Assembly (NCBI GenBank): GCA_012295275.1
Contig: CM022679.1
Coordinates: 2,790,001-2,854,000, forward strand
Source: Chrysomallon squamiferum
Taxonomy: Eukaryota; Animalia; Mollusca
Direction: 5' to 3'
DNA length: 64,000 nt
Position numbers and translations under genes: made by a program
Shown here: positions 401-61,925 of the stretch, in pieces
Position numbering within the stretch: position 1 is the stretch's first letter
Layout: each line of letters starts with the position of its first letter
Notes under the pieces: generated by a model
The model's database searches: none
Told to the model about the DNA's origin: nothing
What the model saw: the letters and a program-made list of their open reading frames with translations, nothing else

Positions 401-1612
401 GAAGAACTTGCAGAAGGTTTACACTTGATTGACTTTGAGCAGCTGAAGATAGAAAATCAAACTTACAATGAGAAGATTGAGGAACGAAATGAGGTATGAC
501 ATTCTTTATTTAGCTTCTTAATCTGACAACAGGTGTCTGGATCAAATCTTGTTTCTACCTCTGATATCAGCACATTACATGACTGATTGATTTTTAAAAA
601 TATATTTTTGTGTTTTGAAAGATTTGTTTTTCTGTTGTTTTATTTTCAGAATTACTGAAGCAAACACAGTTCTCTTTCTGAGCTAAAATGTCATCATTTT
701 ATTTTCAGTATTAATGCAGCTGCTGAGAAAAGCAAACATTTTAAATTCGTTCAATAATTTTATATTTAAGTGCTGTCTTTGTGCAGCTGTTAACTGAATC
801 TCCACTGAGAAGTTTTGAACCAAGCATCTCCCATAACCATCGTTTTACATTTGCAAAAACAGTAAATAACTGAAAACAAATTTTATTAAATTATATTTAG
901 TTATTTTATAGGAATGTTTGTAGAATATTATTACCAGTATCAGCACAGTCACATTAAGAATTTATAAACAAAATAATAATTAAGCACTGTTAGTAATAGA
1001 AGATGTTGTTGTAGGAGTTGCTGAAGCTACATGAAAGATAACGAGGCAGTGCAGGTGTTGACACACCTGAAGGAGAAGCTGCAGTTTGTTCAGGCTGAGA
1101 ACCACGTACAGAGAGGAAATCTTCGAGAAGTGGAAGCCCTTGCAGCTCAGGTTTGTTTGTCTCTCAGTACTGATCTCAACATGTGAGTGTGGGTGTTTGG
1201 GTAAAGGGTCTGTATTTTGTATATTTGACTGCGAATTACCGAATGTTTAACTGGTTCTGGGCTGTGGATAAAATGACATTGATTCAATCTAGCATTCATT
1301 TGGTTGTTTTTTCATTCAAGTTTTCATTAATTTTTGCGTGTTTTTTTGTTGTTTTTTTGCTCACAGAAACGGGATATTTTATCAAGGACAAAACAAGCCA
1401 GGGATTCTCTCAGAATTGATAATCAACGTTTACGTCAGAACTGTGGTCTCCTTGGAAACGAGCCCCTGTTGAGAGATTTTGAAGAGCGCGTGGATGAGAG
1501 TGAAGAACTCAGAGACAAGCTGGAACGAATGAAAATGATTCATGCTGAAATGACCTTGACCTGTAACCAAGTGCGAAGAAAAATAGAACAGGCCAGATCA
1601 GGAAGAACATAG
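401..1612 (+). CDS. CCDC96: Coiled-coil domain-containing protein 96 (CFAP184), last three coding exons; middle exon frameshifted in this assembly
   Basis: Exons 401-493 (EELAEGLHLIDFEQLKIENQTYNEKIEERNE), 1015-1150 (ELLKL..KIT..AVQVLTHLKEKLQFVQAENHVQRGNLREVEALAAQ) and 1367-1612 (KRDILSRTKQARDSLR...GLLGNEPLLRDFEER...stop), all with AG/GT boundaries. The LHLIDFEQLKIENQ..NEKIEERNEELLKL and GLL...LLRDFE motifs are recognisable as the CCDC96/DUF4201 C-terminus. AATAAA at about 1657. 5' exons lie outside the window. Confidence 0.88.
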
Positions 1613-12336: not shown

Positions 12337-13652
12337 CTAAATAAATAAATAAATAACTAATAGTAATAATAGCGATGATGATAATATTAATAATAGTAGG
12401 AGTAGTAGTAATAACTAAATAAATAAATAATACTAATAATAATGATGATGATAATATTAATAATAGTAGTAGTAGTAATAACTAGAATAAAATAAACAAT
12501 AAATAACCATATTAGAATTAACTAACGACTATAATTATTTCCACCTTGGTTGACAAACCTGTTCTATTTATAAATGCATGTGACCATATCACATGCTTGG
12601 GAAAACCATTTTCCTAGTAACCGTAAACAAACCAGAAGAGATGGACAGAAACAGATGCTGTGTTCTGTTGATCTTGTTTGGCAGGAGTTTTGATCGCCAA
12701 TGGTGGGGTGGGGGTGGAGAACGATGTACATTTAATATTACAATGAATAAATGAATTTTTGTTTAACAACAAACGGAGAGGTTCTGTACTGTAAGACTTA
12801 GTTAATGTATGTTGAACAGACCTCTTTGGAAAGGTGGCAGTTTTGAATGTGATAGGCGCGGGTTAAACAACAATCTGATAGAAACATGCCAGAACTTACT
12901 CACAGGCATAATTAAGGGTTTTATAATAAAACGAAATTGGGAAAAAAAAATCCTTTTCCTAAGTTAGATGTTAGGTTCGTTCCAGTAATAGAGGGGTTTT
13001 GTGCTATCCCAGTATCATTTTACATTAAACTTTTCCCGTTTTCCGTAAAACATTCAACTTTTCCTGATTTCAAAATCCGACCTGGAGTGATTAGGTTCTT
13101 TAGCAGACGTCATGCTTCTGTACGATTTCAGAATATTCTGTACTGGTTGTGGGTTTATGTCAACCATCTTTCGATTTTTTTTTCTTCATATCACCTTTGC
13201 ACCATTTATAATATCTTCCATATATTTTTAAACTATACTGTACTAAACAGAATGGAGGAATTCACCATTGATGTACATTATTAAGATTTGGATACAGTAA
13301 ATACTGATAATCATTTTCTTAAAAATAAACTCCAACTTGATAATTTAGCTTTAATTTGTATAACTCTTACATATTACAGAATATAAAAATACAACTAGTG
13401 AAAATACTTCAGTCCATCTCGCACTGAAGAGAGCACAATTCATTTCTAATTTAAAGACGAAATATAAAGTCTTAGCGTTGAGAATGCTAATATGGCGGAA
13501 ACGAGACAGACCAAGAAACTGCGAGATGAGATGCTTGACGATGAAACACCGTGCTGCCTTTTCCATGATCGAAGTTCTCAGCTTACAACTATTATTATTA
13601 TTATTATTATTATTATTAAATCTGAGAGATAATAAATATTATGAATTTCTGT

Positions 13653-13690
<38 letters not shown>

Positions 13691-13757
13691 TTCCAAACAT
13701 TGCCTACATTTTGAAAACACTACATCAGAATGTTTTATACTTTGCTATGTTTTCATC

Positions 13758-13834
13758 GATTTGGGGGTTTCCCGATTTGGGGGTTTCCTGATTTCGGGGT
13801 TTCCCGATTCGGGGGTTTCCCGATGTGGGATCTT
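13758..13834 (+). promoter_or_regulatory. Tandem array of NF-kappaB/Rel-like sites (16-bp period) upstream of receptor C
   Basis: gatttGGGGGTTTCCc, gatttGGGGGTTTCCt, gatttcGGGGTTTCCC, gattcGGGGGTTTCCc and a decayed fifth unit. Each of the four fits GGGRNWYYCC; the fourth unit ends about 64 nt before the ATG at 13885. Confidence 0.55.
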
Positions 13835-13884
13835 CTTAAACATTAAGTTAAAGTGGTAGACAGAAGCTGATCGTTCTAAATCTG

Positions 13885-15342
13885 ATGGAGCTGATTTATT
13901 ATTCGTCAGCTGTAATTTTGCTTTCTGTTTACGTTCTAACAAAACCCAATTGTCCACCGAACACTTATTACGACTCTTCAACAAGGAATTGTGATTCGTG
14001 TGGTTTTATTTGCACGTATCCAGAAATTCAAGGCACCGTAGACAAGTGCAAAAACCTCTGTCCAGGTAAATGTATAAATATAAATATAAATATATATCAG
14101 TATATTTTGTTCTAACAATTTTTATCAACGACAATTTGTAAACTAATATATTACTTATTTTGAGTAGTGATTTTTTTTTTTTTTTTTTACATTTAGATTG
14201 TAATAGAGCCTGCACGGGCGCATCCATATTCGAGTGAATTATCTTCACCTCGTAGCCCTGTTGTTATTCATAATACTCATTTTAACAGTCTCGTCAAATT
14301 CTGGTTATATGTTTTTCTATTAGAAACGTCATATACAGAAGATGAATAAAGTACCAAGTTGTTTTTCAAGACCTTTCCACTGTTAATCAACAATCACTTT
14401 GAATACATTTCTTCAGCGTAACTTAAAACAGTTCTAGCTCATATTCGGGATCGGAGGCTTTTTCCCCTCAACTGTTACGTAGTCTTCATTCGAAAAACTG
14501 ATGTAACACAACCGTGTTACACACGCACTGGTAATCACGAAATCGATACTGGAACCCATCCATTTGAAACGATAAAATAAAATTTGGTGCATGCCTGATA
14601 TTTCAAACAACAATTATTTATTGTTTGTGAACGATTGTCTGAAACGCGGAGCCTCGCTTATTGACAACAGGGTGATTTCTTTTCCTAAAATTCTGTAAAG
14701 AAATCAAATCAAATTAATTGCTGTATTATAATTAAAATTTATTTAAGTTCTAATTTTGTGGTGTTATTACTTTCATTTAATAAAAATAACTTTTTTATAT
14801 GAATTACAGTGATAATGTATGAGGTCTGATTTATTTTTCTGTTGTATTAACAGTATATATAACTGACTACACTGTTCAGTCTGTAATACAGGCCATAAGC
14901 ACATAAATTACAGGCCATCAGATAAAGTATATCAAGTTTGTGGTGTCTAAATATATATTTGTTTTCCTTTTTTGTTTCTAGGATTCACCACCCCTAAATC
15001 AACAGATCGACCTATTGATATTGAGGAACCTATTTCATATAGCACCATAGCGATTATTGTCATTATAGTAGTTGTTGCGGTCATCAGTGCTGTTGGTGTT
15101 TCGTACTGCCTAATAAAGAAAAAATGTGCTAAAGGACGTGCAAAAAACCAAGGTTTGACATCATATACGTATTTATTTGACAAGCAAGTTTTTTCTTTAT
15201 TTCTTCATTTATTCGAGTAGCATTATTGTTAGTTTAGCTGACTTTTTTGTTGATTTTTATTTTTATTATTATTTTTTTTTTGTTAATGTTCTTTCATTAA
15301 AATAGTCATATATCTCTATACGCAGATTCTTTTTTTAAATTA

Positions 15343-15391
<49 letters not shown>

Positions 15392-15693
15392 TTCATAGAT
15401 TTGATTTTGTTTTTCCTGTCTAAGGAAAGATGCATCAGCATTGTATATGGCGATATCCTTTGAATTATTCAACGATTTTCACAACTTTTAAAATATCACA
15501 CTGATTTCTGTCACATTATTAAGAATAGTGTATTAAAGCCTGTTTGTTTTAAGGATCTGTTCAATATATTTTACTGGTTTTGTGAAAATACTTTACATAA
15601 TGCTAATTAACTAATGTTTGTTCTTATATACAAAATGTGTGTGTAAATGAGTGTGTGTGTTTATATGTGTTTCTTTATGTATCGATGTGTGTT

Positions 15694-15748
<55 letters not shown>

Positions 15749-16092
15749 TAGTGTATGAGTATGTGTGTGTTTGCCCTGACATTGGTTAATCTCTTGCAGT
15801 CAGGATAATTTCACCATAATCTTTTTTTTCTCTCGGTAAAATTAAAAACATGACTATGACGTGTTTACTGGTTTTACTGAAATATGTAACAGTTGAGTGT
15901 TTCTTTTCTGCAGAGAAAAAACAGAAAAGTAAACTGCTTCCTCCAGAAGACAGGAAAAAACCTGTGGAAGCAACAGAAGAGAATCCTGCTTCTCAGAAAC
16001 TATGGCAAACTAGAAGGGAGACAACCATTGAAAACAAAATGATTTTTAATAAACATGAAAAAGGATACTCTTCAAATAAAGTAATAAAATAG
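13885..16092 (+). CDS. TNFR-superfamily-like type I receptor C (single CRD, TM, TRAF-motif tail), isoform with terminal exon 3a, about 176 aa
   Basis: Exons 13885-14065 (signal + CPPNTYYDSSTRNCDSCGFICTYPEIQGTVDKCKNLC), 14982-15152 (stalk + TM IAIIVIIVVVAVISAVGVSYCLI + KKK) and 15914-16092 (EKKQKSKLLPPEDRKKPVEATEENPASQKLW...). Phase-1 GT-AG introns, open frame. Confidence 0.8.
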
Positions 16093-16390
16093 TTTAGATC
16101 TGAACAAAGAAACAAAACTGGATTAAAAAAACAAAAAACTAAAATAATGTGTATTTGAACAAACATATACAAAATGTGATTGTGTATGTGTGTTTCTCTA
16201 TGTGTGTGCATGAGCATGCATGCATGTGTGTGTGTGTGTGTGTGTGCTTGCAATGAAATTGGTTTAACCCCATGCACTTTTTTTCAGGAACCCTCCATCT
16301 ATTATTATTATTGTGTAAAATTTAAAAAATGACTATTAGGTATATACTGGTTTTGCTGAAGTTACGTACAAGTTGAATTCTTTTTTTTAG

Positions 16391-16467
16391 GTTCCAACAT
16401 AAGAAGACCAGTGCAATGTTCAGAAGCAAATCCTACCTGTGATAAACTGGTAGTATCTGGTCACTAA
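16391..16467 (+). CDS. Alternative duplicated terminal exon 3b of receptor C (GSNIRRPVQCSEANPTCDKLVVSGH*)
   Basis: Poly-T + AG acceptor in phase 1, compatible with exon 2. The peptide and the preceding 70 nt of intron align with exon 3a and its acceptor region. Confidence 0.55.
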
Positions 16468-18223
16468 TTTGAGGAAGATTCTTTTTGTTTTCATGGTGTA
16501 GTAAACAACTTTTCAGTTAATTCTTGACATATATACACTACGGTTTACCTTCACTTTTCTGGACACCTGAAAAAGAGTAGTAAAAGAGATACTGTTCAGT
16601 TAGGATTGGCTTCAATTTGTGGGTAGAAGTTGAAAACATTCGCTTCAACTGTATTAAAAAAAAAAAAAAAACTTATTGAAATAAATAAATAAATTAATTA
16701 AAAACTAAAAAGTAAAAAATGTAAAATAATGTGTATTTGAACAAACAAAAACAAAATAACAACAACAGCTATAGTATTTTTACACTTTTGTACAATCTTA
16801 CTGAATTAAAAGTTATTATAGGCCTGAATAAGATAAGTAATAGACAATTAAATAGTTTGTCTTCTGTTATCTGCTCTTAGTAACAAGCTGCATTATAGCA
16901 TCCTTATTGTTACACTAATTTAAAATTGTACTTAACTTGTACTTAGATGTTAAGGAATGTTAAGAATTACTATTTACATTTAATTTGTACTGAAGTCTTA
17001 AATAATTTTAAAATGTTACAGAATAAGAATAAGATCATATTATTATTTAGTCACGTATTTACATTTGACTTGTATTTGAGTGTCAAAGTATTTTAAATTG
17101 TTATAGAACAAGAGGCATCAGAATATGTGAAACAAGCGGGCCTCTCCTTCCCTTGAAAAACTAGATAAACTGGTAACATGCTGAACATATAAGAGTTTTC
17201 GGTAGAGAGAACATATGAACTGTTTAATACCTAATATCTGTTCTGTTGTTTTTGACTTGTGCATAGCTATTGTGTAAATAAACCGTAAAATAAATGTGTT
17301 AAGATGCAGTTATGTTTATATATATATATATTTAATGTCTTCAAATTTTTAATATTTACAGTTTTCATTTTGTTAAACTTTTACCGTTTATTTACACAAT
17401 AGCTATGTACACAAAGTCAAACTGCAGTTATTGTAATGACACTTTATTGGAAGAAACTGATTTCTGATGCATATTAACAGTTGATGCATTTTGTTGCAGT
17501 TTGCTTTGATTCTTATTGTTATTATTATTTTAGTTGTCTATATGTTATTTGCTGTATGGAATTCTATTTATTTTTAATAATTAATTCTACTGATTGTTTG
17601 TAACATAAATGCATTTTGTAAATATTTGTGTTCTTCTATTTGTGCCATTTAACACAAAAAAAATATCTGATCAGAATGTCATATGTCACCTTTTGTGATA
17701 TCAGATGTGTCACAAGATGCATTACTGTAATTAACACATTTGCATATTAACACATTTATTTACATATACTTATTGTACATGAAAATATAGACTGTTCTTG
17801 AATGTAAACATACGGTTTTAAAGTGTGATGAAGCCATTATGTCAGACTTAATTGTCTGTTCTAGACCATCAGTGACATGTAAATACAAATTTTATACCTT
17901 TTATGTAGTTGTTTTCTTTCTTACTTTTTTACATAATTAGTTGTATAGTTGAATGAAATGAACAGTGAAAGACTCATTTGAACACAAAAAACTTCACTTT
18001 AGTAAACATCTTCCACTGACTGAACAAACTGAGAATTGTGTATACGTAGAGGCCAGTAATCTCTTACACTAGAGTACTTCATTTGATAGAATACAAACAT
18101 ACAAATGTACACACATACATATGTATACACATTGTCAACAGCATTTCCCCACATCATTTTAACAATGTATTAACTTTAAACTGAAACAAACAAAAAAAAA
18201 AATTTAAAATTTAAAAAAAATTA

Positions 18224-18502: not shown

Positions 18503-19618
18503 ATGGAGCTGATTTATTATTCATCAGCTGTAATTTTACTTTCTGTTTACGTTCTAACAAAATTATTTGTAAACCGAACTCTTACTACGATTCTTCGACA
18601 GATAACTGTGATTCATGTGGTTTTATTTGCACATTTGCAGAAATTCAAGGCACGGTAGACAAGTGCAAAAAACTCTCTCCAGGTAAATGAATAAATATAT
18701 TTTGTTCTTGTTCAATTTTGATCAACGACAAATTCTAGACTGTAGTAGAACCTGCATGAGCGCATCCATCTTGGAATGAACGATCTTCGTGTCGGAGCGC
18801 TGTTGTTATTCATAATACTCATTTTAACAGTCTCGTCAAATTCTCTGTTATATGTTTTTCTATTAGAAACGTCATAACGCTTGATATTTAGTACAAAAAG
18901 ATGAGTAAAGTAGCACTGCTAAACATTTTTCAAGACCTTTCCACTGTTAATCAACAATCACTTTGAATAAATTTCTTTAGCGTAACTTAAAACAGTTCTA
19001 ACTCATATTCGGGATCGGAGGCTTTTCCCCCTCAAATGTTTTAGTCTTCATTCGTAGTCTTCATTTTGTAAAACTGAATGTGGTTTTATTGGTTTAATCT
19101 AATAAAAATAACTTTTATATAATTGTTTACAGTGATAATGTATAAGGTCTGGTTTCTTTTTCTATGATTCTGGCCATAAAATCCATCAGGTAAATTAAAA
19201 TTTATTTATTTTCAAGTTTGTGGTGTCTAAATATATATTTGTTTTCTTTTTTACAGTTTCTAGGATACATCATCCCTAAATCAACAGATCCACCTATTCA
19301 GCATGAGGACCCAGTTTCATATAGCACCGTAGCGTCTTTATTTCTTTAAATTGTCATTATAGTAGTTGCTCTGGTTTCTGTTCTTTTGGTGTTTTCTTTT
19401 TGTTTCTAGGAAACAAAACAGATGTGCCTAAAGGACATGAAAAACAGCATATAGCACTATTGACATCATTTTATACGTATTTATTTTGACTTGCAAGTTT
19501 TTGTTTATTTCTTTATTTATTCTAAAAACATTAAGGTTTGACATATTTTACATATTTTAGCTGATTTTTTTTATTTATTTATTTATTTATTAATTTATTC
19601 TTTTTATGATTATTTATT

Positions 19619-19654
<36 letters not shown>

Positions 19655-20328
19655 TTCTTTAAGATGAATTTTTTTTTCCTGTTTAAGGAAAGATGTATCA
19701 GCCTTGTATGAGGAGATATTGTTTGAATTATTAAACGATTTTCACACCTTTTAAAATAATACACTGATTTCTGTCACCTTTTTAAGACTAGTTTGTGACC
19801 AGATACAGATTTAGATTTCATAGATTGTTTACTGATGATACCTAATTCATGATTTCTCTCTAAATAAATCTGTATTTCATTTAAATTTGTTAAGCCTGTT
19901 TCTTTTCAGGATCTGTTAAATATATTTTACTGGTGCTGTGAAAACACTTTTCATAATGCTAAATAACTAATGTTTGTTCTTATATACAAAGTGTGTGTCT
20001 GTTTATATGTGTATCTCTGTATCTCTGTCTGTGTGTGTGTGTGTGTGTGTGGGTGTTGTGTTAACCTCCTGTGTGTCAGTGTAATTTTGTTTTTGCGTCA
20101 ATGATTTTTTTTTTTCACTCAGGAAACCTCTGTATGTTTTTATTGTCATGTAAAATTTAAAAAATAAGTATCAAGTGTATGCTGGTTTTACTGAAATATG
20201 TAACAGTTGAGTGTTTTTTTTCTGCAGAGAAAAAACAGAAAAGTAAACTGCTTCCTCCAGAAGACAGGAAAAAACCGGTGGAAGCAACAGAAGAGAATCC
20301 TGCTTCTCAGAAACTAGTGGTAAACTAG
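18503..20328 (+). pseudogene. Receptor D: tandem duplicate of C, frameshifted and stop-containing
   Basis: Exon 1 (18503-18682) is 180 nt versus 181 in C, with a 1-nt loss before the first Cys and the last Cys changed to Ser (tgt>tct). Exon 2 from 19264 has an inserted in-frame TAA, further indels and no clear donor. Exon 3 (20228-20328) is intact (...PVEATEENPASQKLVVN*). Confidence 0.7.
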
Positions 20329-20789
20329 AAGGGAGACAACCATTGAAAACAAAATAATTTTTGATAAACATGAACAAGGATACTCTTGAAAAAAAGAACA
20401 AAATAATTTAGATCTGAACAAAGAAACAAAATTGGATCTAAAAAAAAAAAAATGTAAATAAAATAAATAAATAAATTAAAAAATAAATAAATAAATGAAT
20501 TAAGAATTAAAAAGTAAAAACTGTAAAATAATGTGTATTTGAACAAAGAACAAACAAAATAACAACAACAAGTAATAGATATTAAATATTTTATCTTCTG
20601 TTATCTGCTCTTAGTAACAAGCTGCAATTTCAGATTACAGATTTGTTTTAATTTATCAAGAGATTATAGCATCCTTATTTTTACACTAATTTAAAATTGT
20701 ACTTAACTTGTACTTAAATGTTAAAGAATGTTAAGAATTACTATTTACTGAAGATGAAAATCATTAAATCCTTTATTTATTTGGTTAAA

Positions 20790-26101: not shown

Positions 26102-27570
26102 ATGGTAAGCTGGCAATCATGTTTAACTTTCGGAGTAGAACTATTTGTTGTTTGTAAAAGTTCGAAACTGATCAAGTGAATGTTTACAATCTAGTTAGGT
26201 CACAATGACCCATATGTAACAAATGTGCTAATCAGAGCAAGTTGTTTGATGACCGTTGCCTCTTTCTGATAGGTAAGAGAGCGTGCCAGTCGCAGATACA
26301 CACATATATGAATATGTATGTTTTATTTATAGGACACTCCACCGCGTTACCAACCAATCAGCCTTGTGAGCACGTATTTGCAATTTCTTATAGCTGCTGT
26401 GATCATCATTGTTATTGGTTTTGTGTACTTGAGAAGAAGACAAGAAAACCAAGGTGTGACATAATTTACGTATTTACTTGCAAGTATTTTCTTTATTTAT
26501 TTGAGTACCATTACTTTTAATTTAGAAAACATTTATTAGTGATATTTTAGAGTTATTTAATATTTTATTTCATTAAAATGATCATATAACTTTAAAAGTA
26601 AATTTTAAGCTGTTGTGGTCATCAGGAGTATTCATGTCTCGCAAAGAAAGAAAATGAAAAAAAACCAAGGTGCGACTTAATTTACTTATTTATTTCACTT
26701 GCAAGTTTTTACTTTATTTCTTTGTTTATGTGAGTAGCATTAGTTTTAGTTTAGCTGATCATTATTATTTTTATTTAATACGTTACTTCATTTATAAGCA
26801 AATTTTTTATTTTTTTTTAAATTAATTTATTTTTAAAATTATTATTAATTTTAAGATGGCTATTTTTTTTTTCCTGTCTAAGGAAAGATGCATTCAGCCT
26901 TGTATGAGGAGATATTGTTTCACTTATTAAATGATTTTCACTCCTTTTAAAATAACACACTGATTTCTGTCACCTTATTAAGAACAGTTTGTGACCAGAT
27001 ATGGACTTACTTTTATAGATTCTTTACAGATCAGGGGTGGGCAAACTTATTGGTTCAAGGTTTTTAAAAAATACTCATGAAATCTATTTATTTTTTCTGT
27101 TTTTAATCAACAAATGTATTGTTGAAAGGCTGAGTCCAGTTGCAATGCGCCACCTGGTGGTACCAATTAAATACCTGGTGGCACCAGTGAAATGAAGACT
27201 ACGAATTTAAAAATGTTATAGGTTTATTGTTCGTGAAAATTCCTGACGGGCTGGATAAAATGATGTTGCAACACAAGGCAATAATGTCGTAGTTTGCCCA
27301 CCTCTGCTCTAGGTGATAAATATTTATCCGTATTTCATTTAAATTTGTTAAGCCTGTTTGATTTCAGGAATATGCTTTTTTTTTACTGGTTTTGGGTGAA
27401 ACTTTTCATAATGTTTGTTCTCATATACAAAATGTGTTTGTGTGTGTGTGTTTCTCTATGTGTGTACATGAGCATGCATGCATGTGTGTGTGTGCTTGCA
27501 ATGAAATTGGTTTAACCCCATGCACTTTTTTTCAGGAACCCTCCATCTATTATTATTATTGTGTAAAATT
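26102..27570 (+). pseudogene. Degraded receptor paralogue E (CRD-like remnant, frameshifted TM exon, second TM-end remnant), truncated by the gap
   Basis: AG-flanked exon 26333-26453 (121 nt, 1 off frame): GHSTALPTNQP / VSTYLQFLIAAVIIIVIGFVYLRRRQENQ|GT. A second ...KKNQ|GT remnant lies at 26609-26669. The downstream intron is homologous to C/D intron 2. A possible CRD remnant ends at the donor at 26272. Confidence 0.5.
27032..27306. mobile_element. Non-autonomous hAT-like MITE
   Basis: TIRs CAGGGGTGGGCAAAC / GTTTGCCCACCTCTG. The paralogous intron of D (about 19825-19840) lacks it. TSD is degenerate. Confidence 0.7.
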
Positions 27571-34663: not shown

Positions 34664-34976
34664 CAATATTTTTAACAATGTTTTAATTAAATATCGTGAC
34701 CGGTATATAAATTATCTCATATTAATTCATGTACAAAGAGAACTATCGTGACAAACCACAATTAACTGTTATTACAAATGTTGCGAGAACTCTAATGATT
34801 AAAGGTAATGTATCTTTGTAATCAACTACAGTCACGTACTTTTCTACGTAGTTTTCCTTTTGTGTGATTGTATGTGTGTGTGTGTGAGAGAGAGATACCC
34901 TTTCATTACAACGTACGTTTGACATGTTATACTTTCACAAAACAGAGCTATCAGTTAGATATTTGTTTACTTGCAG

Positions 34977-35524
34977 GTGATCTGTTCATCCTGGTGTACA
35001 GCATTGACAACCGAGAGAGCTTTGATGAAGTCAGACGTCTGCTAGATCAGATTGTCGAGTGTAAGAGTCAGTGTCGCAGCGTAAAGGACGTCAAGCTGCT
35101 CAACGTGCCTATCATGATCGTTGGCAACAAGTGTGACCTTGAGAAGGACAGAGTCATTGACCAGAATGACGTCATCAATCTTCTGGAAGGACGTTCCAAC
35201 ACCATCTACACGGAGTGCTCGGCTAAGAAGAACGTAAATATTGAGGATGTGTTCGTACGACTTTTCCACACAGCCAAACTGCCTTCTGAAATGAGTCCAT
35301 CGCTACATCGCAAAGTGCACCCCCAGTACGTGGGCAAAGGCAGCTCGCCCGTGGCTGGCAGAGTCATGTCCATCAGAAGGAAGACCAGTGATGCCTGTGG
35401 GGCGGTGGCTCCCAATGCCAGACGACCCAGCATCAGAACCGATCTGCTGGTTGCCCAGAGCCGGACAAACTCCAGTACGTCACCAGATGACGATACGAGA
35501 GATGCCAAGTGTGTTCTTCAGTGA
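34977..35524 (+). CDS. RASD2: Rhes/Dexras1-type Ras-family GTPase (RASD1/2 co-orthologue), terminal coding exon
   Basis: Acceptor ttgcag|GT GAT; GDLFILVYSIDNRESFDEV, G4 GNKCD, G5 ECSAK, LPSEMSPSLHRKV, DACGAVAPNARRPSIRTDL and CAAX CVLQ are typical of RASD exon 2. The exon with the P-loop is not found in the window. Confidence 0.9.
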
Positions 35525-36427: not shown

Positions 36428-37010
36428 ATTTAATACATACTCTGTTTACACGTGTTAGTGAATGATATTTAATACATGCTCTGTTTACACGTGTATTAGT
36501 GAATGACATTTAGTACATATTCTGTTTACACGTGTTAGTGAATGACATTTAATACATGCTCTGTTTACACGTGTTAGTGAATGACATTAATACATGCTCT
36601 GTTTACACGTGTTAATGAATGACATTTAATACATACTCTGTTTACACGTGTTAATGAATGACATTTAATACATACTCTGTTTACACGTGTTAATGAATGA
36701 CATTTAATACATGCTCTGTTTACACGTGTTAATGAATTACATTTAATACATGCTCTGTTTACACGTGTATTAGTGAATGACATTAATACATGCTCTGTTT
36801 ACACGTGTATTAGTGAATGACATTTAATACATACTCTGTTTACACGTGTTAATGAATGACATTAATACATGCTCTGTTTACACGTGTTAGTGAATGACAT
36901 TAATACATGCTCTGTTTACACGTGTTAGTGAATGACATTTAATAATGTTCTGTTTACACGTGCTTTATTGAATGACATTTAATACATACTCTGTTTCCAC
37001 GTGCGTTAAT
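36428..37010. repeat. 39-bp minisatellite (about 15 copies) containing TGTTTACACGTGT
   Basis: Unit atgacatttaatacatgctctgtttacacgtgttagtga, with 38-41-bp variants. Confidence 0.95.
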
Positions 37011-37653
37011 GAATGGCTTATCAGTGGCGGATTTAGACACACACTGAACAGACAGGACGCAGAAGCTTCACGAATTAAACTTTCGAGGCACTTTTGTCAC
37101 ACGACCATAACAGCTTGCCAAATTACATCTTCGTCAGGTTTACGACATTTCAGGATAAAAATCCATATGCTTATCATTTAGCGTGCTTTCTGTCAGAGAA
37201 GTGTTAAAGCTTGCCCAAGATTTTCACAAAAATCTGATTTTACCAGAGTTCTGTTCAGGAAACGTCTAAATCCGGACCGACTACATGAATGTAGTTGCCT
37301 AATGATACAACTTTAATAGAGAATGACTGAAATATGTATTGAGTATTCACTGTGCATGTACAGATACATACGTTTTGTACTTTGTGTTATGTTTTAAACA
37401 ACATCTGAATGGTCAGAGATTTCTCAATGAGTTTGTTTTTTGTTTTTGTATAGTATAACACAGAGGATACTAATTTCTTACAAGACACACGTTTTAGGAT
37501 CTATTAGTCATTAAAACTGTAGCGACAGTTTGTGTGGTGTGTGTGTGTGTGTGTGTGTGTGTTTGTGGCTGTGCGTGAGAGATAGAGTAGAAAGGGAAAA
37601 GAAAGAGGGACACACAGAGTGACAGAAAGAGAAAGACAGGAAGAGAGAGAGAG

Positions 37654-40704: not shown

Positions 40705-41211
40705 CTAGCCTATAACCAGTTTATGTTTTCCTTCTATTCTGTAAGCACCGTCTTCAAGAACTGGTTCTGCAATCTGCATTAGCAGCCGGCGTACGTCAAA
40801 CGAAGAACTAGGGACAAGACGGTCTGTGGCTTCCAGAAATTGGTACGAATCTTCAGCTCTGCTCGATGTTACAATTGCTGAGAACGCATGACCGGGCGAT
40901 ATAGGATTTCTGTTGTCTTCTTGCAGTAGACATCTGTACATCTGTTCCAGTTGTGCGACATGTCTCAACGAGACATCCGTTCCAGACGCCAAAGGGCAGT
41001 TTGGTGACATCCATCGGTGGAAACTGTTTATAGCAATTTCAGAAACGATGTTACCCGCAGCAGCTACCGCCAAGTGACACACGTGGCACCGGATCGTTCT
41101 CGACTCCTCATCATAATATAATCCTGCATTAGCTATGTTTATGGGCCTACATTGACCTAAATTAGGGAATATCTCCGGTCCGTGAATCTCATTGTCGTTA
41201 ATCCACGCCAT
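40705..41211 (-). CDS. Single-BIR IAP-like protein 1 (degenerate BIR N-terminus, no RING), 168 aa
   Basis: ANAGLYY...IRCHVC-x19-HRWMSPNCP retains the CCHC zinc ligands but has lost R..TF. The C-terminal half is near-identical to the paralogues at 44852 and 56855. Confidence 0.65.
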   Translation of the reverse strand: MAWINDNEIHGPEIFPNLGQCRPINIANAGLYYDEESRTIRCHVCHLAVAAAGNIVSEIAINSFHRWMSPNCPLASGTDVSLRHVAQLEQMYRCLLQEDNRNPISPGHAFSAIVTSSRAEDSYQFLEATDRLVPSSSFDVRRLLMQIAEPVLEDGAYRIEGKHKLVIG

Positions 41212-41801
41212 GTTAGCTTTATTTTACAATACGTACAGACAGTCTAGCTGAGATAAATAAACAACCTGAAAAGAAAACAGAAAAGATCAAACGTTTAATA
41301 GTTTTTTTCAGTGTATAATCGCAAAGAAATTACTTTAAAAATTATTTAAAAGAAAATAACGAGAGAGATACAGAAAGACAGACAGAGATAGAGAGAGGGA
41401 TGATAGAGAGAGCCAGAGGGAGAGAGATAACAGAACCACTGAAAGAGGTAACAGATAGATAGAGAGACAGAGAAAGAAATAGAGATGATAGAAAGAGAGA
41501 TATATAGAGAATGAATGGGACATGAGAGTGTAAGAGATGAAGTGTGATATAATGACAGAGAGATGTAGTACAGTTAGTGTTAGTAGTCGAAGAAATAACA
41601 GGAACTGATAGGACAGCAGTAGTAATAATAGTTATGACATTACTGTAGTAGAATTAATTTACTGATTCTGTGTTAATGTGTATTATATAAACGGCAGGCA
41701 AATCAAAAAGCCACAGAAAGGAAATTTGTGTTCAAACTTACTGAGACGTACTGTGATGATTAACACAATTTTAGCAATATGTCAAACAACAGCAGTCTAT
41801 C

Positions 41802-42529: not shown

Positions 42530-44851
42530 TTTAATTACTCAACAGTGTCTCCTCTGTAATTTAATAGTTGAAGGATACATGTAAACATTGCGGTGATCAA
42601 TAGAATAAAAATAATAATAATAAATAATAATAAATTCATTTTTAATAAAAATACCAAGTAAAAAGAGAGAAAAATTAATAAACTTCTTTAAACGTTACTT
42701 ACACATCAGAATATTAAAATGTTTGGCACATCGATCATTCATTTTACAAAAAGATGACATCATTTCCTGCTTTCAAATAATACCACTATAGTGTCGCGTG
42801 ACTTGTACGGGTATATGTATCTCAATACAACACACTATTTAAACGGCCCGTATTATGTATATTAAATCGGGTCAAATAATAATATCTAAGAAAGAAAATG
42901 AACATACTTCTGTATGCAAATGCCGTATCTACTTTTTTAATGGGTCAAACTAAAAAATCAACAATAAATATGTTCTCACTGACATGCGAGTTGTTACCTC
43001 AATCATTACACTGAGCTCCTCTAGATTATTTGGAAACCGATTATTATCGTATAGATGGTGTGGATGTCTCTTACCGCATAAAGTATGCAAATATGATAAA
43101 CATTGAAATAATCCATGTATTGAATGTCTGTAAATAATTAATAAAGAAAGTATTCGTCTAAAAATGTGTTTTTTCACAAAAAGCAATCACTGCTACTTCG
43201 TGAGTTTACCAATGGCTTCCATGTTCTACAGGTGACTTGGTTCTTTGTGACTATGCAATTACCGTATCTTCTTTTTTATTACGTAAAGTATTAGTTAAAA
43301 CAGATTAAATTAATCTACAGTATTATATTAATGTTTACTTCCTTCAACTGTTATATTTAACTGTCTTATATTATATGGCAATATGGAGCGGATATTATAC
43401 CTGTGCCACAGGGAACAGGTACGAGGTGATCTTTGTAACTGTTTGATAAGTATGGTGGATAAGTAATTTAATGGTTTCGTAATGAAATCTTATCTCTGGC
43501 TCTGCAGTCAATCAGTGATGAGTGGAGAGATTATCGTCAGTTATCGACGTGTCCTCTGTAATTTGTCCTCCGTTCCGGTTGAGTAATGAAGCTGTCTCCC
43601 CAGGTGGAAATCAATACCATACTGACAAACAGGTAAATGTTTATTTATTTATTTAATTTATTTTATTATTATTATTTTTTTAATTTATTTTTGTTTGGCT
43701 GTTTTTTTCTTAATATATAATTGTGTTGTAATAATATTTTTAAAAAGCATAAAATAATAAAATAAAAAAAACATACACCCACATGTAGTAAACATTCTAA
43801 AATGATATAACATTGTTCTCCTTGTTTAGTGTCACAAATAAATCCGTGATTTCAATACTTCATCTGAGGTTTTGGAATAATTATCTGAGAATTTAATAAC
43901 TTATGTATATAGTAGTAGATGTACTGTTACTATTTATAGTGACTGTACTTAGTGATAGAAGTTACAACAGTTGTAGCAGTAATAGCAGAAACTAGTTCAT
44001 ATTTTTTCTTTCTATTTCCTTGTTGAAATTAGCAAGAAAACAGAAAGATATCACATAACTATACCAATGACATACTTGTCTTCTGATATTTTTATCAAGT
44101 TCAAATCAGTTTTACATATATCGTGACATTGTAGTGATTACTGATTTTTCGCCTAGGTAAGTTGGAAAAATAATTTCTCTTCTGTGTCTTATTAATTTGC
44201 CTGCCGCTTATATAATAATACACGTTAACACAGAATCAGTAAATGAATTACTTTAGATGTACTACTATTACTACTAGCATTACTTTTCTACTGCTGCTAC
44301 TCTAACTGCAAGCGATACCAAAACCACTACAACTACGGCCACTACTACTACTACTACTACTATTATTACTTCTGCTGTCCTATTTCTTCGACTACCAACA
44401 CTAATTGTACTACATCTCTCTGTCATTATGTCACACTTCATCTCTTACACTCTCAGTCCCATTCATTCTCTACATATCTCTCTTTCTATCATCTCTATTT
44501 CTCTCTCTGTCATTATGTCACTCTTTATCTATCTCTCTTACACTCTCACTCCCATTCATTCTCTATATATCTCTCTTTCTATCATCTCTATTACTCTCTC
44601 TATCTATCTGTAACCTCTTTCACTGGTTCTGTTATCTCTCTCCCTCTAGCTCTCTCTATCTCTATGTGTATTTCTGTATCTCTCTCGTTATTTTCTTTTA
44701 AACACTTCTTAACGTAATTTCTTTCCGATTATAAACTGAAAAAACTATTAAACGTTTCATGTTTTCTGTTTTCTTTTCAAACTGTTTATTTTTTTTTTCT
44801 CTCTCTCTCTTTATGCTAAACAGTCTGTACGTATTGTATAATAAAGCTAAC

Positions 44852-45415
44852 ATGGCGAGGATTGTTTGGAATAAGGACATTGAGCTTTGCCGACTACGGA
44901 CATTCCAGACATGCCCTGATATAGGTCAACGTCGGGCCAAGAAGCTGGCTAGTGCAGGATTACACTATGATGAAGAAAGGAGAGAGATCCGATGTCACGT
45001 GTTTGACAGGGGGGTAGCTGTGAGTGAGATCGACCCTGAAACTGATGACAACAGTCTCCACCTTCGGCTGTCACCAAACTGCCCTTTGGCGTCTGGGACG
45101 TATTCTCGTAATGTTCCCATTCAGAATGAAATGTCGCTGAGACATGTCGCACAATTGGAACAGATGTACAGACGTCTACTGCAGGAAGACAACAGAAATT
45201 CTACGTGTCCCGATCATGCGTTCTTCCGCCAGGAATCCTCAGCAATTGTAACATCAAGCAGAGCTGAAGATTCGTACCAATTTCTGCAAGTCACAGACCG
45301 TCTTGTCCCGAGTTCTTCGTTTAACATACACCAGCTGCTGATGGAGATTGCAGAACCAGTTCTTGAAGACGGTGCTTACAGAATAGAAGGAAAGCATGAA
45401 CTGGTTATAGGCTAG
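44852..45415 (+). CDS. Single-BIR IAP-like protein 2 (second zinc-ligand Cys>Phe), 187 aa
   Basis: ELCRLRTFQTCP...KLASAGLHYD...IRCHVF-x18-HLRLSPNCPLASG..NVPI. The likely start is ATG 44852 in the conserved aaagctaacATGG context. Confidence 0.7.
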   Translation: MARIVWNKDIELCRLRTFQTCPDIGQRRAKKLASAGLHYDEERREIRCHVFDRGVAVSEIDPETDDNSLHLRLSPNCPLASGTYSRNVPIQNEMSLRHVAQLEQMYRRLLQEDNRNSTCPDHAFFRQESSAIVTSSRAEDSYQFLQVTDRLVPSSSFNIHQLLMEIAEPVLEDGAYRIEGKHELVIG

Positions 45416-48314: not shown

Positions 48315-51300
48315 TCACAAAGGCCCCGTTCTGAAGCAGTACTGGCCCTGGTACTGCGGCAAGAATTGTTTCTTCATGGCCTCCTGTCTCAGTTTTCGCT
48401 TGACGATCTGTCGATACAGTTTCGCTCTGTGCGCTTTCCAGTTGACATAGTCTTGTAAGTTTCTCTGTAGATATTCCTCTGTCGGGAACGGACATTCCTA
48501 CAAATAAATAAATGAATATTTATAACATCTAAACGCATTGCAGTATTAATCATTATTTCGTGCCTTAGTCACTTGTGTAATCGTATTTAAGGAAATGCAC
48601 GTAGGTCTTCTTGTACGTTCGAGTCTCGTTAGAGGTATCTGACGGGTTTGTGAGGTCGTGACTGGACTTTGTCCTCCTGCTCCAATGCGTTCCCGAATAT
48701 TGTCTATGTGCAGAGTCTAATCAGACGTACATAAGACCGAGAATATTCAAAATCCTAAACTACATACATACATACACACACATACAAACATACACATTCA
48801 TAAAAACACATTCATATATGCATCCATAAATATATATTTATATATATACAAAGTACACACATAGAGACAGACAGACACATACATATATACACTAGGTATG
48901 CAACGTTATTCAAAATAAAATGGTTACACTCACTGTTTGTCTGAGATGTCTCATGGAAGACTCAGACGCTTTTTCCAAGAAGAATTTCTTAGACATGACA
49001 ATACACTCAGCTCCGTTACTGACCAAGTACAGACTGGGCTGCTCCGGGTAAACCATGTTACTGACACCCTGTACGTTAATTAACGAATAAACTCTGTTAA
49101 TTACGTCCTGTGCGTTAATTAACGAATAAACTCTGTTAATTACATCCTGTACGGTAATTAATGAATAAACTCTGTTAATTACATCCTGTACGTTAATTAA
49201 CGAATAAACTCTGTTAATTACATCCTGTACGTTAATTAACGAATAAACTCTGTTAATTACATCCTGTACGTTAATTAACGAATAAACTCTGTTAATTACA
49301 TCCTGTACGTTAATTAACGAATAAACTCTGTTAATTACATCCTGTACGTTAATTAACGAATAAACTCTGTTAATTACATCCTGTACGTTAATTAACGAAT
49401 AAACTCTGTTAATTACATCCTGTACGTTAATTAATGAATAAACCACGTTACTGACATCCTGTACGTTAATTAATGAATAAACCACGTTACTGACATCCTG
49501 TACGTTAATTAACGAATAAACTCTGTTAATTACATCCTGTACGCTAATTAATGAATAAACCACGTTACTGACATCCTGTACGTTAATTAACGAATAAACT
49601 CTGTTAATTACATCCTGTACGTTAATTAACGAATAAACTCTGTTAATTACATCCTGTACGTTAATTAACGAATAAACTCTGTTAATTACATCCTGTACGT
49701 TAATTAACGAATAAACTCTGTTAATTACATCCTGTACGTTAATTAATGAATAAACCACGTTACTGACATCCTGTACGTTAATTAATGAATAAACCACGTT
49801 ACTGACATCCTGTACGTTAATTAACGAATAAACTCTGTTAATTACATCCTGTACGCTAATTAATGAATAAACCACGTTACTGACATCCTGTACGTTAATT
49901 AACGAATAAACTCTGTTAATTACATCCTGTACGTTAATTAACGAATAAACTCTGTTAATTACATCCTGTACGTTAATTAATGAATAAATCGTATTACTGA
50001 ATCCTGAACGTTAACTAACGAATACACCATGTTAATTACATCATGTACGTTAAGTAACGAATAAATCGTGTTAATTACATCCTGTACGTTAATTAATGAA
50101 TAAACCCTGTTAATTACGTCCTGTACGTTAATTAAAGAATGAACCGTGTTACTGATATCCTGCTATGATGAATTAATATCGCCTCGATCTATTTCTATAT
50201 TAACATTTAAAAGATAGAAAACTACTTTCATTTATTTGTTAACTTATATTCATATTTATTTATTGTTAGACATTGTCATCATCATCATTAATAATAATAA
50301 AATAGTATTATTTAGAGCGGAACAATGGCGTATTTGTGTCCATCAGTGGTTGCTGCTGATTGTGTTGTACTTACTCCGGTAATATTTCAGTTATGTTCAC
50401 AAACTGGAAAGTTTTATATTTGTCCCCACTAGCTCCAGTTAAACACTGCCGAACAGACGTGCAGTTTTTGTTCTTTTTAATAATATTATCATGCTATTGT
50501 TTGCTAGTGTCTGTGTATGTGTGTGCATGTGTATGTGTGCGTATATGTGTGTATGTATGAGTGTATGTGTGTCTGTGTGTGTGTATGTGTGTGTGGTGTC
50601 AATGATATTTGTTATTTTTTTTTACATCAGTATTGCAGAACGGATTGCTACACAAGGGAGATTACTCCAGTCACTGACTACTGATTCCAGGAGTCAAGAC
50701 TTAATGTTTCCAGTGTGTATGTGTGTGTATGTTTATATGTTTGTGTGTGAATGCTGTGTTGTGATTGTGGGTGTATGTGTGTGTTGTGTCTATATGTTTT
50801 TTGATTTTATGTTTGTGCATATATATGTATGTGTGTATTTATGTAATTTTGTGTATATATGTGATATATATATATATATATACAAATACACACACAAACA
50901 CATACATACATACATACATATATATATTTATATCTTAATACTATATATATCTGTAAGAGTATTAGTGTGTATGTGTTGTGTGCATGTACTGTGTGTTTAT
51001 GTATGTGTTTGTGTATGATGTTTCTGAAAATACAGAATTATCAGAAGTTATAAAACAGACATCGAACGGAAAAGAAAAAAAGTTATGAGTCATGACGTGA
51101 CATTTGCCTGTCTGGATTGGCTACAGAACATAAATATAAGCTAACTGAGATTCAAATTCGAGTAAACCTGTCTTGTAAATAAATTACTGGTAATGTTAAT
51201 GTGTATTTATTTTATATCAGTTCAACATTTTAACATATTCAGTGCATATAAAGTGCACTTTTAGTGATATGAAGGAAAAGTCAAAATGTATTCTACACAC

Positions 51301-55860: not shown

Positions 55861-56771
55861 ACAACAAGTTTGGTCAAAAAGACAGATCGTCCCGAATACA
55901 GATAACTAAGATAAAACAATAAAACATTTTTATTGTCTAACAAATAAAGCAGTATAAATGTTATTAATAGAAGTTTTACTTTTAATGAGCTTTACAGAAG
56001 AAAAATAAAATACTCGGTGATATCTGTAATTTGCGCAATGTTTATACACACAATGTTTTCGTAGATTTTCTGATGACATTTTTTTTATGACACTACGCGA
56101 AAAAAAAATGACCTCTGCTAACCTGGTACAGAGAGTAACGAGTTATTTCTCACAGATATTAGTTTAATTCTGAATCGCAGAGGCAACACTTTAACAACAT
56201 CTTTCAGTTGTTAAATTACATCCATTGTTGAGTAATGAAGGTGTCTGTTGATCCCAGGTGGAAATCAATTATATAGCGACAAACAGGTAAGTGTATATTT
56301 ATTTATCTATTTTATTTTATTATTATTATTTTTTTAAATTGATATTTGTTTCGTTGGTAACAACATTTAATATCTCATTGTGCTATAATAATATTTATAA
56401 GAAGTATATAGCTCCTCGAAAAACTGAATAATCGATGTGTCAAACGTGCTTGTATTTTAATGTTCTAATGTGTAAGTTTTATTCAAGTATATTTTCAGGT
56501 TTCACATGGTGGCTTTTAGGGGGTTTTGAGGGTTTTGTTTTTCTTAAAAACAATTAATATTTAATGTGGTCTAATAATTGTGGTATAATAATATTTTTTA
56601 AGAGTTTCGTCTGAGGTTTTTGAATAATTATCAGAGAATTTAATAATTTATACATATAGTAGTATAAAAAAACTATTAAATGTTTCAAGTTTTCTGTTTT
56701 ATTTCGAATTGTTTATTTTTTCTCTCTCTCTTTATGCTAGACAGTCTGTACGTATTGTATAATAAAGCTAA

Positions 56772-57331
56772 CGAGGATTATTTGGAATAAAGACAAAGAG
56801 ATTCACAGACTGGGGACATTCTGGACCTGCCCTCATTTAGGTCAACGTCGGGTCATGAAGCTGGCTAGAACAGGATTACATTATGATGAAGAAAGGAGAG
56901 AGATCCGATGTCACGTGTGTAACAGAGGTGTAGCTGTGAGTGAGATCGACCATGAAACTGATGACAACCGCCTCCACCTTCGGCTGTCACCAAACTGCCG
57001 TTTGTCGTCTGGGACGTATTCTCGTAATGTTCCCATTCAGAATGAAATGTCGCTGAGACATGTCGCACAATTGGAACAGATGTACAGACGTCTACAGCAG
57101 GAAAACAACAGAAATTCTACGTGTCCCGGTCACGCGTTCTTCCGCCAGGAATCCTCAGCAATTGTAACATTGAGCAGAGCTGAAGATTCGTACCAATTTC
57201 TGAAAGTCACAGACCGTCTTGTCCCTAGTTCTTCATTTGACGTACGCCGGCTGCTAAGGGAGAATGCAGAACCAGTTCTTGAAGACGGTGCTTACAGAAT
57301 AGAAGGAAAGCATGAACTGGCTATAGGCTAG
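56772..57331 (+). pseudogene. Single-BIR IAP-like copy 3; original start codon deleted (N-truncated ORF 56855-57331 or pseudogene)
   Basis: aaagctaac[atggc deleted]gaggatt relative to BIR2. The frame is otherwise open (RIIWNKDKEIHRLGTFWTCP...CHVC-x18-H-x6-C). The next ATG at 56855 lies after the R..TF helix. Confidence 0.65.
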
Positions 57332-61218: not shown

Positions 61219-61397
61219 GTTTTCCTTTAAACACTTTAATTGAGTAATTAGAATTTCAGAATATTTTATTTTCAGAAACACGCCCATTCTCACTTATTCT
61301 ATTCTGTTAATATTTTCCTTGGGCAGACAGAGAAGACTATCGTTTCTCGGAGAAGGTTCCAGAAACAACAGTTTTGAACATTTAAAATAAAGCTAAC

Positions 61398-61925
61398 ATG
61401 GCGAGTAGTATTTGGAATAATGACAATGAGTTTTATCGACTACTGACATTCCAGACCTGCCCTGATGTAGGACAACGTCGGGCCACGAAGCTGGCTAGAA
61501 CAGGATTACATTATGATGAAGAAAGGGGAGAGATCCGGTGTCACGTGTGTAACAGAGGTGTAGCTGTGAGTGAGATCGACCCTGAAACTGATGACAACAG
61601 TCTCCACCTTCGGCTGTCACCAAACTGCCCTTTGGCGTCTGGGACGTATTCTCGTAATGTTCCCATTCAGGCCGACATATCGCTGGGACATGCGACACAA
61701 TCGGTGCAGGAAAGCAACAGGAATTCTAACAGAAATTCTGCATATGCCCAAATTGTAACATCCAGCGGAGCTGGAGTTTCGTACCAGTTTTTACTAGACA
61801 CAGACAGTCTTGTCCCCAGTTCTTCAACGTTTAACTTAAACCAGCTGCTAATGGAGATTGCAGAGTATGTTCTAGAAGACGGTGGATATATAATGGAAGG
61901 AAAGCACAAACTGGTTATAGGTTAG
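61398..61925 (+). CDS. Single-BIR IAP-like protein 4 (complete BIR, no RING), 175 aa
   Basis: EFYRLLTFQTCP...KLARTGLHY...IRCHVC-x18-HLRLSPNCP-LASG..NVPI has all BIR hallmarks (R..TF, LA..G.Y, CCHC). Confidence 0.8.
   Translation: MASSIWNNDNEFYRLLTFQTCPDVGQRRATKLARTGLHYDEERGEIRCHVCNRGVAVSEIDPETDDNSLHLRLSPNCPLASGTYSRNVPIQADISLGHATQSVQESNRNSNRNSAYAQIVTSSGAGVSYQFLLDTDSLVPSSSTFNLNQLLMEIAEYVLEDGGYIMEGKHKLVIG

What the first reader, a model, noticed from the sequence alone, without database searches (positions are those of the whole stretch)
15840..16747. Duplicated, mutually exclusive tail exons giving two TRAF-motif variants
Seen: after the TM exon of C there are two phase-1 terminal exons that align: RKKPVEATEENPASQKL (15914-) and IRRPVQCSEANPTCDKL (16391-). 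Established: PxQx(T/S) is the TRAF2/3/5 motif (CD40 PVQET, TANK PIQCT), PVPATE is the BAFF-R TRAF3 motif, and PxExx(acidic/aromatic) is the TRAF6 motif. PVEATE fits the TRAF6 pattern, resembles BAFF-R and contains ATEE; PVQCS fits PxQxS. Inference: one ectodomain could be switched between adaptor outputs by last-exon choice.
Basis: partly seen in the sequence, partly recalled or inferred. Interest (0 to 1): 0.75.

Follow-up and report, generated by a model that had tools for sequence, protein, structure and literature searches.

The report
Snail TNF receptor with borrowed tail
A small TNF-receptor-like gene, likely from a snail, carries a second copy of its tail exon that was likely pasted in recently from a neighbouring gene copy; RNA shows the first tail joined to the receptor and the second spliced on behind it as untranslated sequence, so a switch between two signalling tails is possible but was not seen.

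Summary
The two aligned tail exons (15914-, 16391-) and their motifs PVEATE and PVQCSE are real. Gene C is a single-domain receptor of an unnamed gastropod family resembling BCMA, TACI, Fn14 and Grindelwald, and TRAF-type motifs are enriched in relatives' tails (11 of 30 against 5.3 expected). 'Mutually exclusive' is not borne out. All 3 RNA runs join the TM exon to a 3a-type exon. One contig in one run splices 3a onto 3b (16080>16391, GT..AG), which puts PVQCSE out of frame. The 582-bp 3b cassette sits between 26-bp direct repeats. Its intron is 98% identical to a broken neighbour, against 84% just upstream, so it is likely a recent capture in a reshuffling gene cluster. By the published consensus 3a fits both the TRAF6 and the TRAF2/3 class, so the motifs differ by degree. 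A minor 3a-skipping isoform stays open, because the 3b acceptor works and its frame is intact. The scan had not noted this family before.

The parts
13885..14065 (+). Gene C exon 1: start codon, predicted signal peptide and one six-cysteine domain of BCMA/TACI/Fn14/Grindelwald type; phase-1 donor
   Evidence: Translation and borders; 39 relatives; model pLDDT 78.8 with best fold matches BCMA and Grindelwald; RNA contigs cover it in 3 of 3 RNA runs
14982..15152 (+). Gene C exon 2: stalk, predicted transmembrane helix, basic juxtamembrane stretch; 171 nt, phase 1-1
   Evidence: RNA joints leave from its end in 3 of 3 RNA runs
15914..16092 (+). Tail exon 3a, the coding tail seen in RNA. The stop is at 16011-16013 in the frame of the contigs with one more base behind 16002, and at 16090-16092 in the window's own frame
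   Evidence: Joints 15147>15912, 15150>15912 (GT..AG when cut +2) and 15152>15933; extra base behind 16002 in all 4 runs; frames
15961..15978 (+). Motif PVEATE: fits PxExx[acidic] (TRAF6 class) and Px(Q/E)xT (TRAF1/2/3/5 class); binding untested
   Evidence: consensus from PMC6125299 passages
16081..16390 (+). GT..AG intron from inside 3a's 3' region to the 3b acceptor; paralog D lacks this donor
   Evidence: X3 loose end behind 16082 equals the window from 16393, with GT fitting on either side; D comparison
16140..16165 (+). Left 26-bp direct repeat (end of unit a); the cassette junction lies at its right end
16164..16747 (+). Unit b: captured cassette of intron end, tail exon 3b and 3' region
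   Evidence: 16164-16322 matches paralog E at 146 of 149 columns, against 275 of 328 upstream; Fisher P 1e-6
16391..16467 (+). Tail exon 3b: open frame in phase with the TM exon; out of frame or untranslated when reached from 3a
16408..16425 (+). Motif PVQCSE: close to PxQxT (TANK PIQCT) with S for T; does not fit the TRAF6 pattern; binding untested
16680..16693 (+). AATAAA cluster behind 3b, homologous to D's cluster; the matching stretch is missing at the end of unit a
16722..16747 (+). Right 26-bp direct repeat, 582 bp from the left one
18503..20328 (+). Paralog D, broken (frameshift in exon 1; stops and no donor in the TM exon); single 3a-type tail, 97 of 99 columns identical to 3a against 157 of 179 in exon 1
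   Evidence: Fisher P 0.003
26150..27570 (+). Paralog E, broken (degenerate exon-1-like stretch with a stop, frameshifted TM exon 26333-26453); its intron runs straight into a unit-b copy and then into the N gap

Best explanation
Gene C is a small, likely TNF-receptor-type gene whose working tail in the RNA examined is exon 3a, while exon 3b is a likely recent copy of a neighbouring paralog's tail cassette that was seen only as untranslated sequence spliced behind 3a. Shown: TM>3a joins, a 3a>3b splice, the direct repeats, the identity jump at the cassette's left end, and broken paralogs D and E. Inferred: the cassette arrived by unequal exchange or template switching between tandem paralogs. 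Inferred: unit a lost its strong poly(A) cluster, so some transcripts run on and end in unit b through a weak donor at 16081. Predicted: the 3a tail recruits TRAF adaptors through PVEATE. A 3a-skipping transcript would carry PVQCSE in frame, but is likely rare or absent.
For: RNA contigs: TM joined to a 3a-type exon in 3 of 3 RNA runs; 3a read on past 16080 in 2 of 3 (X1 record 8, X2 record 16); 3a>3b in 1 of 3; TM>3b in 0 of 8 listed joints (not visible there, as 3b lay outside the stretch) and 0 of 18 listed RNA loose ends. Reached from 16080, 3b gives three residues and a stop in the window's frame, or lies 67 nt behind the stop in the common frame. Unit b's intron is 146 of 149 identical to E, while C and E share 79-86% upstream. 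3a is likewise closer to D than the rest of the gene is. Both neighbours are broken, as expected in a birth-and-death cluster. D has 8 AATAAA/ATTAAA hexamers at 20457-20490 where unit a has a deletion.
Against: The 3a>3b join rests on one contig, whose depth I infer to be about 4 (13.5 minus 9.3 at 16048). Contigs cannot be assigned safely to C rather than to close paralogs; X3 record 19 has 22 differences in the TM exon. The 3b frame and motif are intact, and Q is the commoner residue in relatives (PxQxx[DE] in 8 of 30 tails, PxExx[acidic/aromatic] in 3 of 30), which would suit a used tail. Unit a still has three AATAAA (16048, 16075, 16083). E's exon is in the gap, so the donor's tail was not seen.
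Confidence: 0.58

Rival explanations
1. One reading: 3a can be skipped, so the gene makes two receptors with one ectodomain. One has a tail predicted to take TRAF6 and TRAF2/3-class adaptors, the other a tail predicted to take the TRAF2/3 class only, in a regulated ratio.
For: The 3b acceptor is used. Its frame is open and in phase. Both motifs sit at a family-enriched site. Q at P0 makes three hydrogen bonds to TRAF2 and E only one, while TRAF6 needs E (PMC6125299 passages). C-terminal swaps are the enriched class of tandem exon substitutions, 77 of 236 in human (PMC9741552 passages).
Against: No TM>3b join among the listed rows. The cassette looks recent. About two thirds of the human events predate vertebrates. 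A PxE match is weak evidence of TRAF6 binding: 10,451 matches in the human proteome and 1,200 screened non-binders (PMC9597381 passages). The consensus comes from vertebrate TRAFs.
Confidence: 0.22
2. The duplication is old and C keeps the ancestral two-tail layout. D and E each lost one unit by crossover between the repeats, and later gene conversion made the copies alike again.
For: 3a and 3b differ at 16 of 48 nt in the motif block. D has 3a followed by a unit-b-like end, and E has the intron followed by unit b: the two reciprocal collapse products.
Against: It needs a conversion tract that starts exactly at the cassette junction, where identity to E jumps from 79-86% to 98%. Divergence of 3a and 3b is equally explained by their evolving in separate paralogs.
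Confidence: 0.12
3. The 3b cassette is an assembly mosaic of paralogs or haplotypes next to a gap.
For: A near-identical copy of the unit-b intron ends at the N gap (27420-27570). No listed contig spans the junction at 16165 with the window's letters. X1 record 8 stops matching exactly at 16165, and X1 and X2 have loose ends behind 16175 that continue as 16758 onward.
Against: An RNA contig links C-type 3a sequence (D lacks the GT) to 3b at a canonical acceptor, which needs the two in cis. The X1 and X2 rows fit as well a haplotype without the cassette, a poly(A) start, or 3b-end sequence laid on its repeat.
Confidence: 0.08

Closest known systems
Single-CRD TNF receptors: human BCMA (TNFRSF17), TACI, BAFF-R, Fn14 (TNFRSF12A); Drosophila Grindelwald
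   Same: One small cysteine-rich domain (beta-hairpin, then helices), a TM helix and a short tail without a death domain. The best fold matches are BCMA (Foldseek prob 0.82, E 0.56) and Grindelwald (Z 4.1, rmsd 2.8, 41 aligned); all 4 chains at Z 2 or more were Grindelwald, BCMA or Fn14. Grindelwald binds Traf2 directly (PMC8024323 passages). Grindelwald homologues are reported in molluscs (10.1101/2024.07.27.603686 passages).
   Different: No Pfam family reached its curated cut-off for any of 39 proteins scanned. It has six cysteines where Grindelwald has eight. Ligand and adaptors are unknown. None of these receptors is, to my recall, described with a duplicated tail exon.
Tandem duplicated exon substitutions at the C-terminus (236 human events, 77 C-terminal; PMC9741552)
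   Same: Two homologous last exons in tandem, each in phase with the upstream exon.
   Different: Those events are annotated as alternative coding isoforms and are mostly ancient (passages). Here only one exon was seen coding, the second was seen spliced behind it, and the copy looks recent and paralog-derived.
TNFR splice variants that alter signalling (GITR, RANK)
   Same: Splice variants of one TNF receptor gene are described (PMC2948872 passage; PMC3680950 search listing only).
   Different: From recall these arise by exon skipping or frame shifts that lose or replace the tail. They do not come from a duplicated exon with a homologous motif.

Membership tests
Small single-CRD TNF receptors (BCMA/TACI/BAFF-R/Fn14/Grindelwald type) | Cysteine-rich domain with hairpin plus helical module | tested here: met
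   Six invariant cysteines in 22 aligned sequences; model strands 27-30 and 35-38, then helices; fold matches weak in score but uniform in kind
Small single-CRD TNF receptors (BCMA/TACI/BAFF-R/Fn14/Grindelwald type) | Passes a curated family profile | tested here: inconclusive
   0 of 39 proteins reach a Pfam cut-off; sub-threshold hits to TNFR_c6, BCMA-Tall_bind, TACI-CRD2, BaffR-Tall_bind and stn_TNFRSF12A; Atlas neighbours of relative P0013 at 0.92 and 0.91 are TNFRSF12A clusters
Small single-CRD TNF receptors (BCMA/TACI/BAFF-R/Fn14/Grindelwald type) | Single TM helix and short tail without a death domain | tested here: met
   Gene model; no Pfam family on either tail; TM and signal peptide judged from the sequence
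Small single-CRD TNF receptors (BCMA/TACI/BAFF-R/Fn14/Grindelwald type) | Binds a TNF-family ligand | not tested
   No ligand of this organism was on hand
TRAF-recruiting receptor tails | Published motif present and enriched beyond chance | tested here: met
   11 of 30 relatives' tails against 5.3 expected (P 0.005); control stalks 1 of 30 against 2.5. 3a fits PxExxZ and Px(Q/E)xT; 3b fits only with S for T
TRAF-recruiting receptor tails | Physical binding, with different TRAF preference for the two tails | not testable with these tools
   Needs pull-downs; motif matches predict TRAF6 binding poorly
Mutually exclusive tandem duplicated exons | Homologous exons in tandem, same phase | tested here: met
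Mutually exclusive tandem duplicated exons | Each exon is joined to the common upstream exon | tested here: inconclusive
Mutually exclusive tandem duplicated exons | The two are never in one transcript | tested here: not met
   One X3 contig joins 16080>16391 at GT..AG
Mutually exclusive tandem duplicated exons | Pair conserved in related species | not testable with these tools
   No genome was held for this window and no animal genomes were searchable; identity to paralog E points to a recent origin

The most novel reading that the evidence does not exclude
A TNF receptor caught in the act of gaining a signalling switch: tail cassettes with different TRAF motifs move between paralogs and pseudogenes of a snail receptor cluster, and in gene C a captured cassette, possibly still polymorphic, gives one ectodomain a second, splice-selectable adaptor output.
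Probability: 0.2. Interest if true: 0.62.

Novelty: new member of a known kind. Interest (0 to 1): 0.3.

Why it matters
As it stands, this is a clean small example of how a tandem receptor cluster shuffles tail modules between live and dead copies. It also points to an unnamed gastropod family of BCMA/Grindelwald-like receptors with TRAF-type tail motifs. If the TM>3b join exists and the two tails bind different adaptors, it would show a new signalling isoform arising by capture of a paralog's last exon, which could be studied within one species. I found no such TNF-receptor case in four searches (listings only).

Tried and rejected
No genome was held for the window. Word-index protein searches found nothing: exon 1 against longer proteins gave 5 candidates, none at E 1 or better, and the TM exon against 30-98 aa proteins gave no candidate, so no protein record of either isoform was available. 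The 3b frame is too short for that search. An exact 24-nt piece of 3b had 0 matches in metagenome contigs. The 19 letters that replace the start of 3a in some RNA contigs have 0 matches in the window at up to 3 mismatches. Foldseek gave no match at E 0.001 or better. The Atlas could not read the window's own exon, so relative P0013 stood in. The first CRD tblastn query was in the wrong frame and was replaced by a pattern scan and an HMM. I first took E's TM exon as intact; with the true acceptor it is 121 nt and frameshifted. Px[QE]xx[DE] (11 of 30 against 2.6) was picked after seeing the tails, so I rely on the literature-motif test. In one search PxQx[TS] alone (4 of 30, P 0.07) and PxExx[DEFWY] alone (3 of 30, P 0.30) were not enriched. 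Codon counts between 3a and 3b (16 codons) are too few to show selection. No complex was folded, as no TRAF of this organism was on hand. Contig depth was not used to rank expression. Look-ups of earlier findings near this place, by sequence and by words returned nothing. No supplements were opened; those of the bioRxiv preprint are closed and may list molluscan members of this family.

Full report
Gene and family. The window is AT-rich animal DNA. Gene C has a signal-plus-cysteine exon (13885-14065), a TM exon (14982-15152) and the two tail exons; all joints are phase 1. A scan of 1.84 billion representatives gave 39 proteins at E 0.001 or better. I looked up 10 of them: 8 carry names, all 'uncharacterized' proteins of Haliotis or Gigantopelta, and 2 are unnamed. 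The host is therefore likely a gastropod. None of 39 proteins scanned reached a Pfam cut-off, but weak hits recur to TNFR_c6, BCMA, TACI, BAFF-R and Fn14 profiles, and also to CBM_14. A model of exon 1 (pLDDT 78.8) matched BCMA best by Foldseek (E 0.56, not significant). The wide search gave only Grindelwald, BCMA and Fn14: 4 of 48,161 chains at Z 2 or more, best Z 4.1. It works like a small single-domain TNF receptor (inferred); ligand binding is untested.

The observation. The two tails align over 16 codons without gaps (32 of 48 nt), and the homology covers whole units from intron to 3' end. The motifs PVEATE and PVQCSE are at the quoted places. One correction: contigs of all 4 runs, and paralog D, have one more base behind 16002, so the usual 3a tail likely stops at 16011-16013. 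The window's longer tail is likely a rare allele or a consensus error.

The motifs. Of the 39 hits I dropped 9 (6 shorter than 120 aa, 1 without a TM helix, 2 long outliers). In the other 30, published TRAF motifs occur in 11 tails against 5.3 in shuffles (P 0.005) and in 1 extracellular stalk against 2.5. The best relative carries PVECTE in its tail. So the site is likely a real adaptor site. By PMC6125299 (passages) TRAF1/2/3/5 accept Px(Q/E)E, Px(Q/E)xxD and Px(Q/E)xT, and TRAF6 accepts PxExxZ. 3a fits both classes; 3b resembles TANK's PIQCT with S for T and lacks the E that TRAF6 needs. PxE matches predict TRAF6 binding poorly (PMC9597381, passages), and these rules come from vertebrate proteins.

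RNA. Four runs hold parts of the locus: three RNA runs of one study, and one of unrecorded kind that covers the introns. Contigs were laid on 13300-16190 only, so 3b can appear only as a loose end. The TM exon is joined to a 3a-type exon in 3 of 3 RNA runs: 15147>15912 in X1, 15150>15912 in X3 (GT..AG when cut +2), and 15152>15933 with 19 other letters in X1, X2 and X3. Some of these contigs may come from paralogs. 3a is read on past 16080 in X1 and X2. In X3 one contig leaves 3a behind 16082 and continues with 30 letters identical to the window from 16393; GT fits on either side, so the join is 16080>16391 with GT..AG ends. D has no GT there, so the contig is C-type. In this transcript 3b gives three residues and a stop in the window's frame, or is 3' UTR 67 nt behind the stop in the common frame. 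By the 50-55 nt rule (recalled, from vertebrates) the latter form may be degraded. None of the 18 listed RNA loose ends shows TM>3b. That is weak evidence, since 38 rows were hidden and contigs drop rare forms.

History. Unit b (16164-16747) lies between 26-bp direct repeats 582 bp apart. Its intron matches broken paralog E at 146 of 149 columns, while C and E match at 275 of 328 upstream (P 1e-6); the jump falls at the junction. 3a in turn matches broken paralog D at 97 of 99 columns against 157 of 179 in exon 1 (P 0.003). The simplest reading is that 3a and 3b diverged as sole tails of separate paralogs and were brought together recently (inferred). Unit a lacks the AATAAA-rich block that D and unit b have, which would let transcripts run on into unit b (inferred; three single AATAAA remain in unit a). 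X1 record 8 stops matching exactly at 16165, and X1 and X2 have loose ends behind 16175 that continue as 16758 onward. This fits a haplotype without the cassette, but also a poly(A) start or 3b-end sequence laid on its repeat; I could not tell these apart. E's own tail lies in the N gap and was not seen.

Mechanism and verdict. Most likely (0.58) gene C signals through 3a, and 3b is a captured tail that serves as an alternative 3' UTR end. A real two-tail switch (0.22) is not excluded, because the acceptor works and the frame is intact. An old duplication with later conversion (0.12) and an assembly mosaic (0.08) are less likely. Duplicated last exons are a known and enriched class (77 of 236 human events; PMC9741552, passages), and Grindelwald-like receptors are reported in molluscs (10.1101/2024.07.27.603686, passages). 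Papers were seen as passages or as search listings; none was read whole. Those listings showed no TNF receptor with a duplicated TRAF-motif exon, which is limited evidence. Verdict: a new member of a known kind, interest 0.3, with one cheap decisive test, the 15152>16391 junction.

Noticed in passing
window 7489-4160, minus strand: A three-domain member of the same receptor family: signal plus domain (7489-7304), domains at 6877-6692 and 5935-5771, TM exon near 5238-5002, tail from about 4298 with PEEE, which fits the major Px(Q/E)E motif.
   Followed up: partly
window 11149-10979, minus strand: A further signal-plus-domain exon with a GT donor (best Pfam hit BCMA-Tall_bind, E 6e-4, below cut-off). 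I found no TM exon of its own, so it may be an alternative first exon of the gene below it.
   Followed up: partly
window 15152>15933, RNA contigs of X1, X2, X3: A third tail variant: 19 different letters replace the first 19 of exon 3a in contigs whose TM exon is close to C's. They are not in the window, so another allele or paralog exists.
   Followed up: partly
window 14362-14583, RNA contigs of X1, X2, X3: Contigs that contain part of intron 1 and join on to the TM exon without a GT donor in the window's sequence; their flank resembles paralog D. Likely a transcript of a diverged paralog.
   Followed up: no
window 40705-41223 (-), 44735-45415 (+), 56741-57331 (+), 61386-61925 (+): Four similar open frames within repeated blocks that look like degenerate BIR (IAP-type) domains; the label is recalled, not tested.
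   Followed up: no
window 34868-35524 (+): Last coding exon of a Ras-like GTPase ending in a CAAX-like motif, resembling RASD/Dexras; label recalled, not tested.
   Followed up: no
window 410-1612 (+): Three 3' exons of a coiled-coil gene resembling CCDC96; label recalled, not tested.
   Followed up: no
window 49049-50177 and 36428-37015: Two tandem arrays with units of about 39 bp.
   Followed up: no
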